Assembly (NCBI GenBank): GCA_014238095.1
Contig: JABABT010000017.1
Coordinates: 1 to 61,482, forward strand
Direction of reading: 5' to 3'
Origin: Candidatus Aenigmatarchaeota archaeon
GTDB taxonomy: Archaea > Aenigmatarchaeota > Aenigmatarchaeia > CG10238-14 > SCSR01
Length of the DNA stretch: 61,482 bases
Shown here: one piece after another, positions 20,367-41,068 of the stretch
Layout of the letters: the number at the start of each line of letters is the position of its first letter
Position numbering within the stretch: the first letter of the stretch is position 1
Notes under the pieces: generated by a model
Told to the model about the DNA's origin: nothing
What the model saw: only the letters and a program-made list of their open reading frames with translations
Database searches by the model: none
Position numbers and translations under genes: made by a program

Positions 20367-21095
20367 TTAACAAGTAATTTCATATTTAAATTCATTTTCA
20401 CCAATATCTAATAATAATTTATAATTTTTACCTTCTTCTGAAATTTGATTTAATTTTACAAATACTGTATTGTTAGATTCAAGAATATTTATATTATCCC
20501 AATCTATTGATTTAACAACTTTATTATCAATTTTTACTTCTACATTCTCTAAAATTATGTTTTTTGTTCCATTATTCTTTATAATTAAATTATAAGTATT
20601 TCTAACAAAATCACATGAAACATCAATAATTTCTATACTTTCTACATCATTTATTGTTTTATTCTTATTATTTTCATTTGTATAATTTGAAATTTGTGTT
20701 GATGAATTATCAATTATTTTGGTATTATTATTTAAATTAAGTGATTCTTCTGCAAATATTAATGATATTGATGAATTTATAATTCTTTTTGTAATTTGTA
20801 TTAAATTTTTTGAAATATTTATTAATTTATTATATGAATTTGTTGAATTTGGAATATTTATGTAATTTATTGATTTATTTAAATCTCCATTTATTTGGAT
20901 ATTTATATTATCAATATTTTGTTCAATAATATCTATTCTATTTTTATTTTCTAATGGTAATTTTTCTAAATTTTTATCTTTAAGATTTTCAGTATAAATA
21001 GGTTTTAAAAATCCTGAAATACCAAAAAAAAATAATAATATAATTGAAATTATAGATAATGTAAATATTATTTTCCATAAATTACTTAATATCAT
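20367..21095 (-). CDS. hypothetical membrane-anchored protein with Cys-bracketed C-terminal beta domain
   Basis: 242 aa. N-terminal TM 'IIFTLSIISIILLFFFGISGF'. The C-terminal ~90 aa 'IEIIDVSC...DW...KYEITC' resembles the pilin at 60806. Confidence 0.55.
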   Translation of the reverse strand: MILSNLWKIIFTLSIISIILLFFFGISGFLKPIYTENLKDKNLEKLPLENKNRIDIIEQNIDNINIQINGDLNKSINYINIPNSTNSYNKLINISKNLIQITKRIINSSISLIFAEESLNLNNNTKIIDNSSTQISNYTNENNKNKTINDVESIEIIDVSCDFVRNTYNLIIKNNGTKNIILENVEVKIDNKVVKSIDWDNINILESNNTVFVKLNQISEEGKNYKLLLDIGENEFKYEITC

Positions 21096-21525: not shown

Positions 21526-22425
21526 TTATTGAACTCCTGTTTCATCTGTTTCATGTGTTTCATTTTCATTATTCTGACGTCTATCACGTAATTCAGATGT
21601 TCTATTAGATATTTTATCTTTTATTCTATTTATTATTGATCTTTCTATATTCTTTTTTGTTTTTTCTATTTCTGATTTTATTCTATCTTCAACACTAACA
21701 TCTTGTACTATTCCTCCTAAATTAACAAATGAGTATATTAATTCAGAAGTATTAGAATTATTAGAATTTCTAATATTTTCAATAATTTGTGTGATTTGGG
21801 TTCTATGATTTTCAATTGTATTATTATCTATTGTTTTATTTTTTAACATATTACATTTTTTAATTATTTCTTCTACTGTTTCATTTACATCAGATAATGT
21901 TCTATAAAAATTACATTCTTCTCTTATTTTATCATTTTTTGATTTATTAGATAAATAATTGAAAATTTTATTTACTCTATTATTCAAATGATTTTGGTCT
22001 ATAACTAAAATTCTAGTAGATTTTTTTATATTTGTACCATTTACAGAATCATTTAAAACAATACCAGCTTTTATAGGAATGATTGATCTATATGTTGAAT
22101 TAATTCCTAATAAATTAATAAATTCTTCACGTTGTGGTATATTACATGTAAATGAAAATTCTCCATTTAATGAAGTTTTTTGTTGATTTGAATCACAAAT
22201 TATTACTCTTTCAGAATTTTGTGTTGATTTAATTGTAATGAAGAAAATTCTATAATCAAATTCTCTATTAAAATCATTTTCTACAGTACCATTTAAAATA
22301 ATTTCATCTCCAAAATTAGCAATTTTATTATTTAATTCTAAATTAATTTCTATTTCAGCTGAAGTTGTATTTGATATTACAATAAATGTCATAATAAATA
22401 CTGAAAATAATATTAAATTTTTCAT
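21526..22425 (-). CDS. hypothetical secreted protein
   Basis: 299 aa. Signal peptide 'LILFSVFIMTFIVISNTTSA', a beta-rich N-terminal half, and a helical, charged C-terminal half. Confidence 0.55.
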   Translation of the reverse strand: MKNLILFSVFIMTFIVISNTTSAEIEINLELNNKIANFGDEIILNGTVENDFNREFDYRIFFITIKSTQNSERVIICDSNQQKTSLNGEFSFTCNIPQREEFINLLGINSTYRSIIPIKAGIVLNDSVNGTNIKKSTRILVIDQNHLNNRVNKIFNYLSNKSKNDKIREECNFYRTLSDVNETVEEIIKKCNMLKNKTIDNNTIENHRTQITQIIENIRNSNNSNTSELIYSFVNLGGIVQDVSVEDRIKSEIEKTKKNIERSIINRIKDKISNRTSELRDRRQNNENETHETDETGVQ

Positions 22426-22492: not shown

Positions 22493-22509
22493 TTTTTTTT
22501 TTTTTTTTT
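22493..22509. repeat. T17 (A17 on the minus strand) homopolymer in an intergenic region
   Basis: Counted directly: 8 T at 22493-22500 plus 9 T at 22501-22509. It lies between the rad50 stop and the start at 22425. Confidence 0.9.
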
Positions 22510-22569: not shown

Positions 22570-24939
22570 TTATTTATCTATTTGTAAAATTTCTGTTGAT
22601 CCATGATTAATTTTATCACGAGTTAATTTATATGCATATCCTGTAACTGCTTTTTCTAATTTTTCATCATGAGTTATTAAGAAAGTTTGATCTATTAAAT
22701 TTCCGATATGTTCACTTAATGTTGTTCCTAAATCTTCTACTGCTTTTGTATCCATATTAACTGTAGGTTCATCAAGAATTAACCATTTTAATTGTGGTGC
22801 TAAAACAAGTGCAAATGATATTCTTAATGTTAAAGATGATATTGTTCTTTCTCCACCTGATGCAAATCCTTCTACATTTACCCATTTATTTGGTCTTTCT
22901 TGAAGTTGTAAAATATAATCACCTTTTTCTATTGTAATTCTTATTCCAATAAAATCTTTATATGAGTAAAGTTTTGGCCATATTTCATTCATTGTATAAT
23001 TAATTGAAGTTATGAATTCTTTTCTTAATTGAATTTGTGTTTCTTCTAATGATTTTTCAAATATATTTAATTGTTTAATTATTTCATCAATTTTATTTAT
23101 ATCATTTAATTCTTTATCATATTTTGATAAAGATATTTCTAATTCATTAATTCTAGATTTTTTATCTGATAAAATTTGTTTCATTGAAATTATTTTTGCT
23201 TCTATATTTTTTTCATTTTCAATTATTTCTTTCCAATTAATTTCTAATTTTATATCATCTTTTCCTAAAATTGATTCTTTCAGTTTAGAAGTATTAAATT
23301 CTATTTGTTTTTTCTGAGTAAATAATTTTTGTATTTTTTCCTTTTTTAATTCATATTCATTCATTCTAGAATATATTTTTTCTAATATTATTTTTCTTTC
23401 TGTATTTTCTAATATATTTTTTTCCAATAATTCATTTTTTGGTTTTAATTCATTTAATTCTTTTTCAAATTTTTGATATTGTTCCTTTAAAATAGCATAA
23501 ATATTTTTATTATTATTTAATTCTGATTTTATATCATCAATATTTTTTATAAATTCTACCATTTCTGAAAGTTTTTCAAGTTGATTTTGTAATTCTTTTA
23601 ATTCATCTTTAGAAATTTTATTTTTTCCCATATCTTTAATAAAAACTTCTTCTAATTTTTTAATATCAAATTTATTTTTATTTATTAAAATTAATTTTTT
23701 CTCTTTAGTTATTTTAGAATTACATAAAGGACATTTATTTTGAATTTCATTAATATTATCTATGATTTCTTTTGAATTTTTTATTTTAATTTTAATTAAT
23801 TCCATACTTGCTTCATATATCTCTATTTTCTTTTTCTTTTTTTCAATTTTTTCTTCTAATTTATCAGGAGATAATTTTTTAGTATCAATAAATCTATTTA
23901 TATCAATTTTCCTTTCTAATTCTGCATTTAACTTATCTAATTTTTCTCTTTTTAATATTTCTGCTTCTGTTTTTGTTTTTTCATAATTTATAAGAAGTTT
24001 ATTATAATTTTCTGATTCTTTCTTAAATAATTTACTCATTTCATCTAAATTTCTAAATAATTCTCTTAAATTTTTATCTATTTCTATTTTATTTTCTCCT
24101 TTCATAGAATCTTCAATTTCTTTTATAGAAATATGTATTTCTTCAATCAATGCAAGAGTTTTTTTTTCATCTGCTTCAAGATTTTTTAACTCTTCTTTTA
24201 TTTTTCTAGAATTTCCTATTTCTTTTTCTATAAGATGTTTTTTTTGAGATTGTTTATTTAATTCAACTTCTAAATATTCTTTTTCTTTACTCATATTAAT
24301 TATAATATTTTTGAATGTTTCTAATGTTTTTTTTGATTCTTCTATATTTAATTTTTCTATAACAATTTGTTTAATATTTTTTTTATCTGAAATTTTTTTA
24401 ATAACTGACATTATATTTAACCTAGCTTTTTCAAATTTATCTATAGTTAATATATCATCAATTTTTTTCATTCTTTGACCACGTGGAATTGTTAAAAAAT
24501 AATCTAAAGAATTTTGTTCTGAATAAATAACTTTACTAAACAATTCATAATTTATTTTCAATATAGACTCAACAACATCATTTACTTTTGACGTATTTGG
24601 TGACTCAATTATTTTACCTTCTTCTTTTATTTCTGAATATGTTGTTCCTTTTCCTTTTTCTATTATTCTCTTTATAGAATAATTTTTTCCATTTAAATGA
24701 AAATAAATTTCAATTTCTGAATTTACTTTTTCAATTGGTTTATTCATTATTAAATCATCAATTTTTAATTTTCTTGCTTGTAAACTAGGAAATGTACCAA
24801 AAAGACAAAAACATACTGCATCAAGTATGCTAGATTTACCACTACCAATTATTCCAACTAAAGCATTTGTACCTTTACTAAAAGCTAATTCTGTATTATT
24901 ATGAGATCTCCAATTTTTTACTTTTACATTTGTTATAAT
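22570..24939 (-). CDS. rad50: DNA double-strand break repair ATPase Rad50 (start non-canonical; track ORF is N-terminally truncated)
   Basis: Zinc hook 'NKCPLCNS', long coiled coils, signature 'SGGERT', Walker B 'LILDEPT'. In-frame upstream of the track ATG (24747) I read '(I)ITNVKVKNWRSHNNTELAFSKGTNALVGIIGSGKSSILDAV', which is the Rad50 N-terminus plus Walker A. That stretch has no ATG/GTG/TTG, but AGGTGG sits 7 nt before the ATT at 24939. Confidence 0.88.
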   Translation of the reverse strand: MITNVKVKNWRSHNNTELAFSKGTNALVGIIGSGKSSILDAVCFCLFGTFPSLQARKLKIDDLIMNKPIEKVNSEIEIYFHLNGKNYSIKRIIEKGKGTTYSEIKEEGKIIESPNTSKVNDVVESILKINYELFSKVIYSEQNSLDYFLTIPRGQRMKKIDDILTIDKFEKARLNIMSVIKKISDKKNIKQIVIEKLNIEESKKTLETFKNIIINMSKEKEYLEVELNKQSQKKHLIEKEIGNSRKIKEELKNLEADEKKTLALIEEIHISIKEIEDSMKGENKIEIDKNLRELFRNLDEMSKLFKKESENYNKLLINYEKTKTEAEILKREKLDKLNAELERKIDINRFIDTKKLSPDKLEEKIEKKKKKIEIYEASMELIKIKIKNSKEIIDNINEIQNKCPLCNSKITKEKKLILINKNKFDIKKLEEVFIKDMGKNKISKDELKELQNQLEKLSEMVEFIKNIDDIKSELNNNKNIYAILKEQYQKFEKELNELKPKNELLEKNILENTERKIILEKIYSRMNEYELKKEKIQKLFTQKKQIEFNTSKLKESILGKDDIKLEINWKEIIENEKNIEAKIISMKQILSDKKSRINELEISLSKYDKELNDINKIDEIIKQLNIFEKSLEETQIQLRKEFITSINYTMNEIWPKLYSYKDFIGIRITIEKGDYILQLQERPNKWVNVEGFASGGERTISSLTLRISFALVLAPQLKWLILDEPTVNMDTKAVEDLGTTLSEHIGNLIDQTFLITHDEKLEKAVTGYAYKLTRDKINHGSTEILQIDK

Positions 24940-26183
24940 AATTTTCCACCTACATCATGAAGTGTTTTTTGATTTCCAGATAATATTGAAATAGTTTTAT
25001 CAATTTCTCCATTTATCATTAATTCAAATAATTGTTGAAAATTAAAATTCAACGAAAATTTTAATTCATCTAAATTATTTTTCAATAAATTTATTCCAAT
25101 TTCTTCAACAGATAATCTTTGTTCTCTAAGAGTTTTCATGAATTCCATTTTTTCTGTTATTTCAACTGATTCTAATTTTTTAACGAAATTTAATAATAAT
25201 TTATCAGAATATTTTTTATTAAATACAGCAATATAATGATCAATAAAATCTGTATCTTTTCCAAATATTTTTACTTTTACTACAGGTTTTTTTAGAAAAT
25301 TTTTATTAACAATATTTGTAAATAAAATATCTAATTCTTTTCTAATAATTTCTGAATTATTATTTTTAATCTCATAATAAAAAAATTTTCTATTTGAATT
25401 TATAGGTATAAATTCTACTTGAGGAGATTTAGAATTTTCAAAATTAATTTTATGGAAACCTTTTACTGATTTTGATTCATTTTCATTAAATTGTGTAGTT
25501 ACAGTACTTCCAAGTATAATAAAAATAGATTCTCCTATTTTATCAATAATTTTATTATGTATATGACCATTTAAAATAACATCAAAACCTTTTGGAAAAT
25601 TTTCTATTTTTAAATCAACTATTTCTAATGGTGAATAAACATATTTATCAATATTTTGATGAATCATTAAAATATTAAAAGAATCAAATATAGGTTTTGG
25701 ATTCCATAATTGAAGTGTTGATTTTGAGTATCTTTCTGGAACTGATGACATACCATGTATTGCAACTTTAACTCCATTCTTTTCAAAAACAATATTTTCT
25801 TTATCAAGATGAATTAATATACCTGCTTGATCAAGTGCTTGTATAACATTTTTCTCATTAGCTAATATTCTATCATGATTTCCATGTAATGATATAAATG
25901 GTATTGAATTTAATGTTCTTTCATGTATTTTCTTTAAATTTTTTGTTGAACTAATAAAATTTATTCCAGATTTTTCTATAAGAGGTTTTGTTAAAATTGA
26001 TATTGCTTTAGCCCAAGTATTTGTTCTTGGATATCTAGAATCAAACATATCTCCAGCACATAATATTAAATCACAATCAAGAGAATTTTCTATAGCCTCT
26101 TTCATATTATCAAATGAATCATCTTCTAAATTAGAATTATGACTTAATCCAAGATGACAATCAGATATAACAGATATTTTCAC
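24933..26183 (-). CDS. mre11: DNA double-strand break repair nuclease Mre11
   Basis: 416 aa with phosphoesterase motifs 'SDCHLG', 'AGDMFD', 'LHGNHD', 'MIHQNI', 'NGHIHN'. Confidence 0.9.
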   Translation of the reverse strand: MKISVISDCHLGLSHNSNLEDDSFDNMKEAIENSLDCDLILCAGDMFDSRYPRTNTWAKAISILTKPLIEKSGINFISSTKNLKKIHERTLNSIPFISLHGNHDRILANEKNVIQALDQAGILIHLDKENIVFEKNGVKVAIHGMSSVPERYSKSTLQLWNPKPIFDSFNILMIHQNIDKYVYSPLEIVDLKIENFPKGFDVILNGHIHNKIIDKIGESIFIILGSTVTTQFNENESKSVKGFHKINFENSKSPQVEFIPINSNRKFFYYEIKNNNSEIIRKELDILFTNIVNKNFLKKPVVKVKIFGKDTDFIDHYIAVFNKKYSDKLLLNFVKKLESVEITEKMEFMKTLREQRLSVEEIGINLLKNNLDELKFSLNFNFQQLFELMINGEIDKTISILSGNQKTLHDVGGKLL

Positions 26184-40969: not shown

Positions 40970-41068
40970 GGACTTGTAGCTTAGTCTGGTTAGAGCACTC
41001 GACTTATATGTCGGCTAAGCGCCCTCGAAGAAATCGAGAGGTCGCGGGTTCAAATCCCGCCTGGTCCA
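40970..41068 (+). tRNA. tRNA-Ile (anticodon TAT) with a 24-nt intron after position 37
   Basis: Hand fold: GGACTTG/TA/GCTT-AGTCTGGTTA-GAGC/A/CTCGA-CTTATA[intron 41009-41032]A-TCGAG/AGGTC/GCGGG-TTCAAAT-CCCGC/CTGGTCC/A. The body closely resembles archaeal tRNA-Ile(GAT) as I remember it. There is one U-U mismatch in the acceptor stem. Confidence 0.8.

What the first reader, a model, noticed from the sequence alone, without database searches (positions are those of the whole stretch)
24748..24951. Rad50 Walker-A N-terminus is encoded upstream of any canonical start codon
Seen: the first ATG/GTG/TTG of the rad50 frame is at 24747. The 65 in-frame codons upstream of it read '(W K) I I I T N V K V K N W R S H N N T E L A F S K G T N A L V G I I G S G K S S I L D A V C F C L F G T F P S L Q A R K L K I D D L I'. 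That is a textbook Rad50 N-terminus including the P-loop, and an in-frame TGA bounds it at 24954-24952. The only start candidates are ATT (24942, 24939) and ATA (24936). An SD-like AGGTGG (24951-24946) lies 7 nt before the ATT at 24939. That spacing matches the GGTG-to-ATG spacing at aIF6 and UPF0147 in this window. The ATA overlaps the mre11 TAA stop as ATAA, a one-base G->A derivative of the ATGA start/stop overlap used by other coupled genes here. Inference: rad50 is translated from a non-canonical ATT/ATA start, probably coupled to mre11 termination. Without this segment the protein would lack its ATP-binding loop. A less likely alternative is a -1 slip on GGA-AAA-T that yields an Mre11-Rad50 fusion.
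Basis: partly seen in the sequence, partly recalled or inferred. Interest (0 to 1): 0.7.

Follow-up and report, generated by a model that had tools for sequence, protein, structure and literature searches.

The report
rad50 start codon mutated to ATT
In this very AT-rich archaeon, one G-to-T change in the four-base mre11/rad50 overlap (ATGA to ATTA) removed both the rad50 start codon and the mre11 stop codon, so the DNA-repair ATPase Rad50 is either made weakly from a rare AUU start or has very recently been silenced.

Summary
The bounding in-frame TGA is at 24957-24955, not 24954-24952, so the start-less open stretch is 69 codons. The 64-65 codons upstream of ATG 24747 encode a genuine Rad50 N-terminus with its Walker A loop.

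Across about 200 Aenigmarchaeota homologues, the family Met aligns with ATT 24939. All 80 species loci examined have ATG, GTG or TTG at or within 3 codons of that position. The commonest arrangement, shared by the three closest relatives, is an ATGA overlap with the mre11 stop.

The window reads ATTA at that place. Changing T24937 back to G restores both the rad50 ATG and the mre11 TGA. The ATT is identical in three separate assemblies. No other gene checked in the window needs a non-canonical start.

Best reading (about 0.55): Rad50 is still made at a reduced level from AUU 24939. A GGUGG Shine-Dalgarno motif lies 7 nt upstream, and mre11 terminates 1 nt downstream of the AUU. The main rival (about 0.3) is very recent inactivation. 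A -1 frameshift fusion lacks every defining signal.

This is a one-off start-codon lesion, not a new mechanism. Interest is modest.

The parts
22570..24939 (-). Full-length rad50 reading frame: 789 codons plus a TAA stop, counted from the codon homologous to the family start.
   Evidence: Translation. It is 41-57% identical over 99-100% of its length to 787-789-aa Aenigmarchaeota Rad50 proteins. Pfam AAA_23, SMC_N and AAA_29 hits begin at residues 2-5, and the zinc-hook motif CPLC is present.
24937..24939 (-). ATT codon at the position of the family's start Met. This is the most likely near-cognate start.
   Evidence: M is nearly invariant in this alignment column and I2 is invariant. The homologous codon is ATG, GTG or TTG in 78 of 80 species, and the other two have an in-frame ATG 1 or 3 codons upstream.
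24937..24937 (-). The single changed base: T here, G in the inferred ancestor. It sits inside the former ATGA overlap at 24939-24936.
   Evidence: Window GGTGGAAAATTAT[T]ATAACA compared with ...ATGATAAC... in relatives. Changing it to G restores both the rad50 ATG and the mre11 TGA.
24946..24950 (-). Shine-Dalgarno-like GGTGG. The GGTG core ends 7 nt before ATT 24939 and 4 nt before ATT 24942.
   Evidence: Sequence. GGTG lies within 20 nt of the start in 42 of 80 relatives, mostly 5-6 nt before it. The window's own GGTG-led genes have spacings of 7-8 nt.
24940..24942 (-). Alternative near-cognate ATT, one codon upstream of the homologous start.
   Evidence: It is in frame. A start here would add one residue to the family N-terminus. 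It cannot be told apart from ATT 24939 by sequence alone.
24934..24936 (-). Alternative near-cognate ATA, overlapping the mre11 TAA as ATAA. It is homologous to the family's invariant Ile2.
   Evidence: A start here would remove residue I2.
24933..26183 (-). mre11: 416 aa, GTG start, TAA stop at 24935-24933. It is one Leu codon longer than the inferred ancestral form.
   Evidence: ORF list, translation, Pfam Metallophos. C-terminal alignment with relatives.
24955..24957 (-). In-frame TGA that bounds the rad50 frame upstream.
   Evidence: Translation and L001 codon read-out.
24942..24945 (-). AAAA run. It is the only conceivable -1 slip site (GGA AAA T) that would fuse Mre11 to Rad50.
   Evidence: Sequence. 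There is no X XXY YYZ heptamer and no downstream structure.
24745..24747 (-). First canonical start (ATG, Met65 counted from ATT 24939). This is the start used by gene callers, giving the 725-aa database protein that lacks Walker A.
   Evidence: (P0001).

Best explanation
Shown: the ancestor of this genome had the arrangement usual for its family. mre11 ended in TGA, overlapping the rad50 ATG as ATGA, with a GGTG Shine-Dalgarno motif a few bases upstream. One G-to-T transversion at 24937 turned ATGA into ATTA. That single change abolished the rad50 ATG. It also abolished the mre11 TGA, so mre11 now reads one more Leu codon and stops at the TAA formed by rad50 codons 2-3. The change is real and is present in all sampled copies of this organism.

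Inferred: Rad50 is still produced, at a reduced level, by initiator-tRNA pairing with the near-cognate AUU at 24939. The neighbouring AUU 24942 or AUA 24936 are less likely. Two features would help. GGUGG lies 7 nt upstream. Ribosomes terminating mre11 do so 1 nt downstream of the AUU, a 7-nt overlap, which allows termination-reinitiation coupling. The region is also unstructured.
For: - Homology places the family Met on ATT 24939.
- All 80 GTDB species loci have a canonical start at or within 3 codons of that position. The ATGA overlap is the commonest class (24-25 of 75) and is present in the three closest relatives and in L007.
- Every truncated database homologue that was checked had ATG or TTG at that position, or was cut by a contig end.
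- The junction is identical in three assemblies that differ elsewhere.
- The 789-codon frame is intact, although 7.2% of possible point changes would create a stop.
- All 19 family-invariant residues within the 64-codon leader are kept, and residues 1-64 are 75-77% identical to L088 and L089.
- Walker A, Q-loop, zinc hook, signature motif, Walker B and H-loop are all readable, and mre11 is intact.
- The SD spacing of 7 nt equals that of the window's own GGTG-led genes.
- The junction RNA is less structured than shuffled controls (z = +1.4 and +1.75).
- Literature: ATGA pairs are coupled by termination-reinitiation in H. volcanii, and overlaps from -8 to +10 nt are treated as predictive of coupling (PMC6728339, PMC10666635). 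In E. coli, AUU and AUA initiate at about 1-2% of the AUG level, and infC and pcnB start with AUU (10.1101/063800). About 30% of putative alternative start sites in H. volcanii ribosome profiling are near-cognate codons (PMC7261190).
Against: - There is no expression or peptide evidence.
- The ATT is unique to this lineage, not conserved as a selected non-AUG start would be.
- Archaeal aIF1 is reported to discriminate against non-canonical starts (PMC6237735, citing work in Sulfolobus).
- The window's Rad50 branch is somewhat longer relative to its neighbours than the branches for ProRS and Mre11 (ratios 1.85 against 1.43 and 1.48). This is compatible with slightly relaxed constraint.
- There is no variation inside rad50 among the three assemblies, so selection after the mutation cannot be measured.
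Confidence: 0.55

Rival explanations
1. Recent loss of function. The G-to-T change silenced rad50, or left only a Walker-A-less product starting at Met 24747, and too little time has passed for further decay.
For: - The ATT is unique among about 200 homologues and is not conserved.
- The genome is about 23% GC while the nearest Rad50 relatives are 46-56% GC, so G-to-T follows the mutational drift of this lineage.
- The Rad50 branch is mildly longer than the ProRS and Mre11 branches.
- The three assemblies are nearly identical, so they represent a single young population.
- aIF1 disfavours non-canonical starts (PMC6237735).
Against: - The 789 codons are still open at 20% GC. With 7.2% of substitutions producing a stop, only 3% of neutral copies would stay open after 2% divergence.
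- All catalytic motifs and all family-invariant N-terminal residues are kept.
- The partner gene mre11 is intact.
- The SD motif and the unstructured context are preserved.
Confidence: 0.3
2. A -1 ribosomal slip of tRNA-Lys on A-AAA (24945-24942), near the end of mre11, yields an Mre11-Rad50 fusion protein (...HDVGGK-IIITNVK...).
For: The frame geometry is correct: the rad50 frame is -1 relative to mre11, and four A residues allow re-pairing of a single tRNA. One archaeal -1 frameshift on an A-rich site is known, S. solfataricus fucA1 (PMC8211752).
Against: - There is no X XXY YYZ heptamer, and the run is only 4 A.
- No stem-loop or pseudoknot lies 5-9 nt downstream. The region folds worse than shuffled sequence.
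- The SD-like GGTGG directly abuts the run rather than lying about 10 nt upstream.
- No relative shares the arrangement. All have separately initiated rad50 genes.
- A single point mutation explains the junction without any recoding.
Confidence: 0.04
3. Sequencing or assembly error: the true base at 24937 is G, or the A-run length is wrong so that GTG 24949 is in frame.
For: The source is a metagenome assembly. The window differs from the other two assemblies inside a T17 homopolymer at 22493-22509, so the window consensus may not be perfect everywhere.
Against: - The junction is base-for-base identical in the window and in two other contigs. These were assembled from different samples (SAMN14422898 and SAMN14422896) and differ from the window elsewhere.
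- The lesion is a substitution in non-repetitive context, not a homopolymer indel.
- No full-length ATG-bearing version exists in the protein collection. P0001 is alone in its cluster.
Confidence: 0.04

Closest known systems
AUU-initiated genes of E. coli (infC, pcnB), and the near-cognate AUU/AUA/AUC starts allowed by translation table 11
   Same: The gene's conserved N-terminus begins at AUU, with an SD motif upstream. Initiation is expected to be weak, about 1-2% of the AUG level in E. coli reporters (10.1101/063800).
   Different: The infC AUU is conserved and serves autoregulation by IF3 (my own knowledge). Here the ATT is a lineage-specific lesion with no sign of conservation. The host is an archaeon that uses aIF1 and aIF2, and nothing has been measured.
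Termination-reinitiation coupling at ATGA / TGATG overlaps (Huber et al. 2019 and 2023; H. volcanii and E. coli)
   Same: The two genes are co-directional and encode subunits of one heteromeric complex. The family junction is a 4-nt ATGA overlap with an SD motif inside the upstream gene, and the window has six other such overlaps. The present 7-nt overlap lies inside the -8 to +10 nt range treated as predictive of coupling (PMC10666635).
   Different: The restart codon is no longer canonical. Reinitiation on a near-cognate codon has not been shown in those studies, as far as I read them.
Archaeal Mre11-Rad50 operon (P. furiosus, M. jannaschii; PDB 1f2t, 3aux, 3av0)
   Same: Gene order, domain content, Walker A at residues about 30-37, zinc hook and signature motif all match.
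   Different: Rad50 here is shorter (about 789 aa). It belongs to the DPANN Aenigmarchaeota clade and has no canonical start.
Programmed -1 frameshift of S. solfataricus fucA1
   Same: An A-rich slip site sits at the junction of two frames in an archaeon.
   Different: fucA1 has the A-AAA-AAT heptamer, rare codons and a stem-loop (PMC8211752). None of these is present here.
AUU/AUA start codons in AT-rich animal mitochondrial genomes (my own knowledge, not tested here)
   Same: Extreme AT bias goes together with ATN starts.
   Different: In mitochondria this is genome-wide and supported by modified initiator tRNA decoding. Here only rad50 is affected among about 60 genes in the window.

Membership tests
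Rad50 (SMC-like ABC ATPase of the Mre11-Rad50 complex) | N-terminal ATPase lobe with Walker A (GxxGxGKS/T) | tested here: met
   GIIGSGKSS lies in the start-less leader. Pfam AAA_23 (E = 4e-17), SMC_N and AAA_29 begin at residues 2-5. PDB Rad50 N-lobes match at E = 4e-16.
Rad50 (SMC-like ABC ATPase of the Mre11-Rad50 complex) | Zinc hook CxxC in the middle of the coiled coil | tested here: met
   CPLC is in the translation, and C/P/C are nearly invariant columns in the family alignment. The Pfam Rad50_zn_hook hit scores 21.6 bits, just under the 24.3-bit cut-off.
Rad50 (SMC-like ABC ATPase of the Mre11-Rad50 complex) | C-terminal lobe with signature motif, Walker B and H-loop | tested here: met
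   ASGGER, LILDEPT and LITHD are in the translation and align with nearly invariant family columns.
Rad50 (SMC-like ABC ATPase of the Mre11-Rad50 complex) | Encoded next to mre11 (a calcineurin-like nuclease) | tested here: met
   mre11 lies immediately upstream and has a Metallophos hit. The same synteny (ProRS-mre11-rad50) is seen in relatives.
Genes with a functional near-cognate (AUU) start | Conserved N-terminal coding sequence with no in-frame ATG/GTG/TTG between the upstream stop and the conserved region | tested here: met
   69 open codons without a canonical start, with homology starting at ATT 24939.
Genes with a functional near-cognate (AUU) start | The non-canonical codon is conserved among relatives (as for infC) | tested here: not met
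   The homologous codon is ATG, GTG or TTG in 78 of 80 species, and the other two have an in-frame ATG 1 or 3 codons upstream. The same holds for every checked database homologue.
Genes with a functional near-cognate (AUU) start | Direct evidence of initiation: an N-terminal peptide, a toeprint or start-site ribosome profiling | not testable with these tools
   No expression data are available for this uncultured organism.
Termination-reinitiation coupled gene pair | Co-directional pair with a stop/start overlap or a gap of -8 to +10 nt | tested here: met
   The mre11 TAA (24935-24933) ends 7 nt after the first base of ATT 24939. The range is taken from PMC10666635.
Termination-reinitiation coupled gene pair | Canonical restart codon in the overlap (ATGA, GTGA, TTGA or TGATG) | tested here: not met
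   The window has ATTA, whereas relatives and six other pairs in the window have ATGA, GTGA or TTGA.
Termination-reinitiation coupled gene pair | Downstream translation depends on upstream translation | not testable with these tools
   This needs a reporter assay.
Programmed -1 ribosomal frameshift | Slippery heptamer X XXY YYZ in the 0 frame | tested here: not met
   The mre11 frame reads GGT GGA AAA TTA, so only a 4-A run is present.
Programmed -1 ribosomal frameshift | Stimulatory RNA structure 5-9 nt downstream | tested here: not met
   MFE is -0.5 kcal/mol for the 62 nt downstream, z = +1.75. The 116-nt context gives z = +1.39.
Programmed -1 ribosomal frameshift | Arrangement conserved in relatives | tested here: not met
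   All relatives have separately initiated rad50 genes.

The most novel reading that the evidence does not exclude
The most novel reading not excluded is that Rad50 is made only as an Mre11-Rad50 fusion. This would arise by a -1 slip of tRNA-Lys on GGA-AAA-U just before the mre11 stop, giving a single-chain MR complex in a DPANN archaeon.

A milder novel reading is that archaeal termination-reinitiation can restart on a near-cognate AUU. That would make this junction a natural test case.
Probability: 0.04. Interest if true: 0.7.

Novelty: new member of a known kind. Interest (0 to 1): 0.3.

Why it matters
Practical point: gene callers truncate this Rad50 to a 725-aa protein with no ATPase domain (P0001), so databases carry a misleading entry. 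The same callers also mis-start several homologues that do have a canonical start.

Biological point: the junction is a clean natural example of how one mutation in an ATGA overlap hits two genes at once. If Rad50 is still made, it would be a rare archaeal case of AUU initiation, possibly through reinitiation after mre11. It could then serve as a reporter template to test whether archaeal termination-reinitiation tolerates near-cognate codons. If Rad50 is not made, the junction records the first step in losing a double-strand-break repair complex in a reduced, AT-drifting DPANN genome.

Tried and rejected
- Assembly error. Rejected because three assemblies agree at every base of the junction.
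- Recurrent non-canonical rad50 starts in the clade. I checked all six N-terminally short database homologues. P0064, P0106 and P0113 have ATG, P0099 and P0109 have TTG, and P0042 is cut by a contig end. I also checked 80 species loci. The two apparent ATA cases have an in-frame ATG 1 or 3 codons upstream.
- Genome-wide use of ATT/ATA starts. No other long ORF in the window has a conserved domain beginning before its first canonical start.
Rejected because it would delete the invariant Ile2.
- GTG 24949 as the start. It is in the third frame and reaches the rad50 frame only with a +1 shift or a 3-A run. The three assemblies do not support that.
- -1 frameshift signals. None found.
- Population test of selection. 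There are no SNPs inside rad50 among the assemblies, so there is no power.
- Closer relatives to date the mutation. The JGI metagenome scan found only a 54%-identical homologue, and the best protein hit is 57% identical.
- Relative-rate comparison. It gave only a mild, inconclusive excess for Rad50.
Full report
**1. What is in the sequence**

On the minus strand the rad50 frame has its first ATG/GTG/TTG at 24747. Upstream of that the frame stays open for 69 codons, back to a TGA at 24957-24955.

The open stretch reads TGT AGG TGG AAA ATT(24942) ATT(24939) ATA(24936) ACA AAT GTA..., which translates as CRWK-IIITNVKVKNWRSH...GIIGSGKSS. mre11 (24933-26183, GTG start) ends GGT GGA AAA TTA TTA TAA, with its stop at 24935-24933. 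The third frame holds ATG ATG TAG and then GTG 24949, and it does not lead into rad50.

An open run of this length is unlikely by chance in DNA of about 20% GC. P is about 1.4e-3 from composition, and only 1.3% of stop-to-stop intervals in the window are as long.

**2. The leader is genuine Rad50**

When translated from ATT 24939, the protein gives Pfam AAA_23, SMC_N and AAA_29 hits that begin at residues 2-5. The 725-aa version from ATG 24747 keeps only the weak zinc-hook hit. The first 158 residues align with solved Rad50 N-lobes: M. jannaschii 3aux residues 5-148 at E = 4e-16, and P. furiosus 1f2t.

A search of the large protein collection returns about 300 homologues. The named ones are Candidatus Aenigmarchaeota, mostly 787-789 aa, covering 99-100% of the query at 41-57% identity. 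The organism's own database entry (P0001) is the 725-aa truncation.

**3. Where the family starts**

About 110 of the 120 listed homologues begin MI(T/K/N)K-V-x-L-K-N-W-R-S-H. In alignments A2 and A3 the Met column falls on ATT 24939, the next column (Ile, ATA 24936) is invariant, and Thr (ACA) follows.

Six homologues looked N-terminally short. P0064, P0106 and P0113 have ATG at the family start and P0099 and P0109 have TTG; all five were simply mis-called. P0042 is cut by a contig end.

A scan of one genome per GTDB species returned 80 loci. The homologous codon is ATG in 71, GTG in 4 and TTG in 3. The two apparent ATA cases have an in-frame ATG one codon (L059) or three codons (L078) upstream. 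The window is therefore the only one of about 200 homologues without a canonical start.

**4. The lesion**

In relatives, the commonest relation between the mre11 stop and the rad50 start is the 4-nt ATGA overlap (24-25 of 75 scorable loci). The three closest relatives (P0002, P0003, P0004, seen in loci L087-L089) and L007 have exactly this arrangement...ATG ATA A...

The window reads GGTGGAAAATTAT-T-ATAACA. Replacing T24937 by G gives ATG ATA ACA for rad50 and ...AAA TTA TGA for mre11. One G-to-T transversion therefore removed the rad50 start and the mre11 stop together. mre11 now reads one extra Leu codon and stops at the TAA formed by rad50 codons 2-3.

That version would delete the invariant Ile2.

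The direction of the change fits the lineage. The window is 22-23% GC, whereas the nearest Rad50 relatives are 46-56% GC. Low GC alone does not erode the start, however: the 24%-GC relatives L034 and L043 keep GGTGGAA-ATG.

**5. It is not an artefact**

The exact 725-aa product is encoded on two further contigs from different samples (SAMN14422898, 29 kb; SAMN14422896, 2.5 kb). Their junctions are identical to the window base for base. They differ from the window elsewhere: four substitutions in a homopolymer at 22502-22509, one SNP at 21085, and a 36-nt tandem-repeat indel.

No full-length ATG-bearing variant exists in the protein collection. A JGI metagenome scan found no close relative.

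**6. It is not a genome-wide habit**

Among the long ORFs of the window, the distance from the upstream stop to the first canonical start is at most 18 codons. The exceptions are rad50 (69) and the class I LysRS gene (30). For LysRS and nine other ORFs with the longest extensions, eight have a Pfam domain, and in each it begins after the first canonical start. The other two have no Pfam hit.

The window uses SD-like GGTG, GGAG or AGGT motifs before internal operon genes and AT-rich, probably leaderless, contexts elsewhere. It has six ATGA, GTGA or TTGA overlaps.

**7. How it most likely works**

Shown: the lesion and its uniqueness.

Inferred: Rad50 is still made from AUU 24939.

Evidence in favour:
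- GGTG ends 7 nt before ATT 24939. The window's own GGTG-led genes have spacings of 7-8 nt (48140, 56970, 57235), and relatives mostly have 5-6 nt. ATT 24942, at 4 nt, cannot be excluded.
- The junction RNA is less structured than shuffled controls (z = +1.39 and +1.75), as expected for a start region.
- mre11 terminates 1 nt downstream of the AUU, a 7-nt overlap. This is within the -8 to +10 nt range treated as predictive of termination-reinitiation, a mechanism shown for ATGA pairs in H. volcanii and enriched in pairs that encode subunits of one complex (PMC6728339, PMC10666635).
- Near-cognate AUU and AUA initiate at about 1-2% of the AUG level in E. coli, where infC and pcnB use AUU (10.1101/063800). 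About 30% of putative alternative start sites in H. volcanii ribosome profiling are near-cognate (PMC7261190).
- The ORF is intact over 789 codons, although 7.2% of possible substitutions would create a stop. Only 3% of neutral copies would survive 2% divergence.
- All 19 family-invariant residues in the leader and all catalytic motifs are kept, and mre11 is intact.

Evidence against:
- aIF1 is reported to discriminate against non-canonical starts (PMC6237735).
- The ATT is not conserved in any relative.
- The Rad50 branch is mildly longer than the ProRS and Mre11 branches (ratios 1.85 against 1.43 and 1.48).
- No SNP lies inside rad50 among the assemblies, so selection after the mutation cannot be measured.

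**8. Rivals**

- Very recent inactivation is the serious alternative (about 0.3). It fits the uniqueness of the ATT and the AT drift of the lineage. It requires that the event is younger than roughly 1-2% neutral divergence.
- A -1 slip on GGA-AAA-U has the right frame geometry for an Mre11-Rad50 fusion. However, there is no X XXY YYZ heptamer, no downstream structure and no conservation, whereas the one established archaeal case, fucA1, has all three (PMC8211752). Probability about 0.04.
- Sequencing error is about 0.04, given the three concordant assemblies.

**9. Comparison with what is known, and verdict**

The protein is an ordinary member of the Aenigmarchaeota Rad50 clade, and all defining features tested were met. 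The junction behaves like a damaged ATGA-coupled pair. It meets the overlap criterion for termination-reinitiation but not the canonical restart codon. It resembles AUU-start genes such as infC in form but not in conservation.

It is best filed as a new, unverified instance of a known kind (a near-cognate start) or as an incipient pseudogene. It is not a new mechanism.

Interest is modest (0.3). The main value lies in correcting the annotation and in providing a natural template for testing near-cognate reinitiation in archaea.

Noticed in passing
window 21537-21563 (inside the minus-strand ORF 21526-22425): A 9-nt tandem repeat (CTGTTTCAT on the + strand) has 3 copies in the window and 7 in the other assembly L001. 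This is an in-frame 36-nt length polymorphism in a 299/311-aa protein with no Pfam hit.
   Followed up: partly
window 22493-22509: A T17 homopolymer lies just downstream of the rad50 stop. Both other assemblies carry four substitutions inside it (22502, 22504, 22508, 22509). The window's perfect run may be a strain difference or a consensus artefact.
   Followed up: partly
window 40970-41068 (+): Rfam tRNA match of 99 nt (60 bits) that ARAGORN did not report. It is probably an intron-containing archaeal tRNA.
   Followed up: no
window 22570-24747 (-), database protein P0001: The public protein collection holds this Rad50 only as the 725-aa truncation from ATG 24747, which has no ATPase-domain hit. 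Five homologues (P0064, P0099, P0106, P0109, P0113) are also mis-started by gene callers, although a canonical ATG or TTG exists at the family start.
   Followed up: yes
whole window compared with L087-L089: The window is 22-23% GC, whereas the closest Rad50 relatives come from contigs of 46-56% GC with the same ProRS-mre11-rad50...aIF5B synteny. This lineage has undergone a very large AT shift.
   Followed up: partly
L031 (MGIS01000002.1) and L013 (DAIDAX010000012.1): Contigs labelled 'Candidatus Wolfebacteria bacterium' and 'bacterium' carry Aenigmarchaeota-type rad50. The 75-nt stretch around the L031 start printed is identical to that of the archaeal MAG contig L033. These are likely mis-binned contigs.
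   Followed up: no
window 26183 (-): mre11 itself starts with GTG. It is preceded by AT-rich sequence with no SD-like motif, so it may be leaderless. Its start region also overlaps the divergently oriented ProRS ORF that begins at 26154.
   Followed up: no
window starts 8793, 36214, 48140, 51905, 52648, 59712: Six other co-directional gene pairs in the window use 4-nt ATGA, GTGA or TTGA stop/start overlaps, so overlap coupling is common in this genome.
   Followed up: yes
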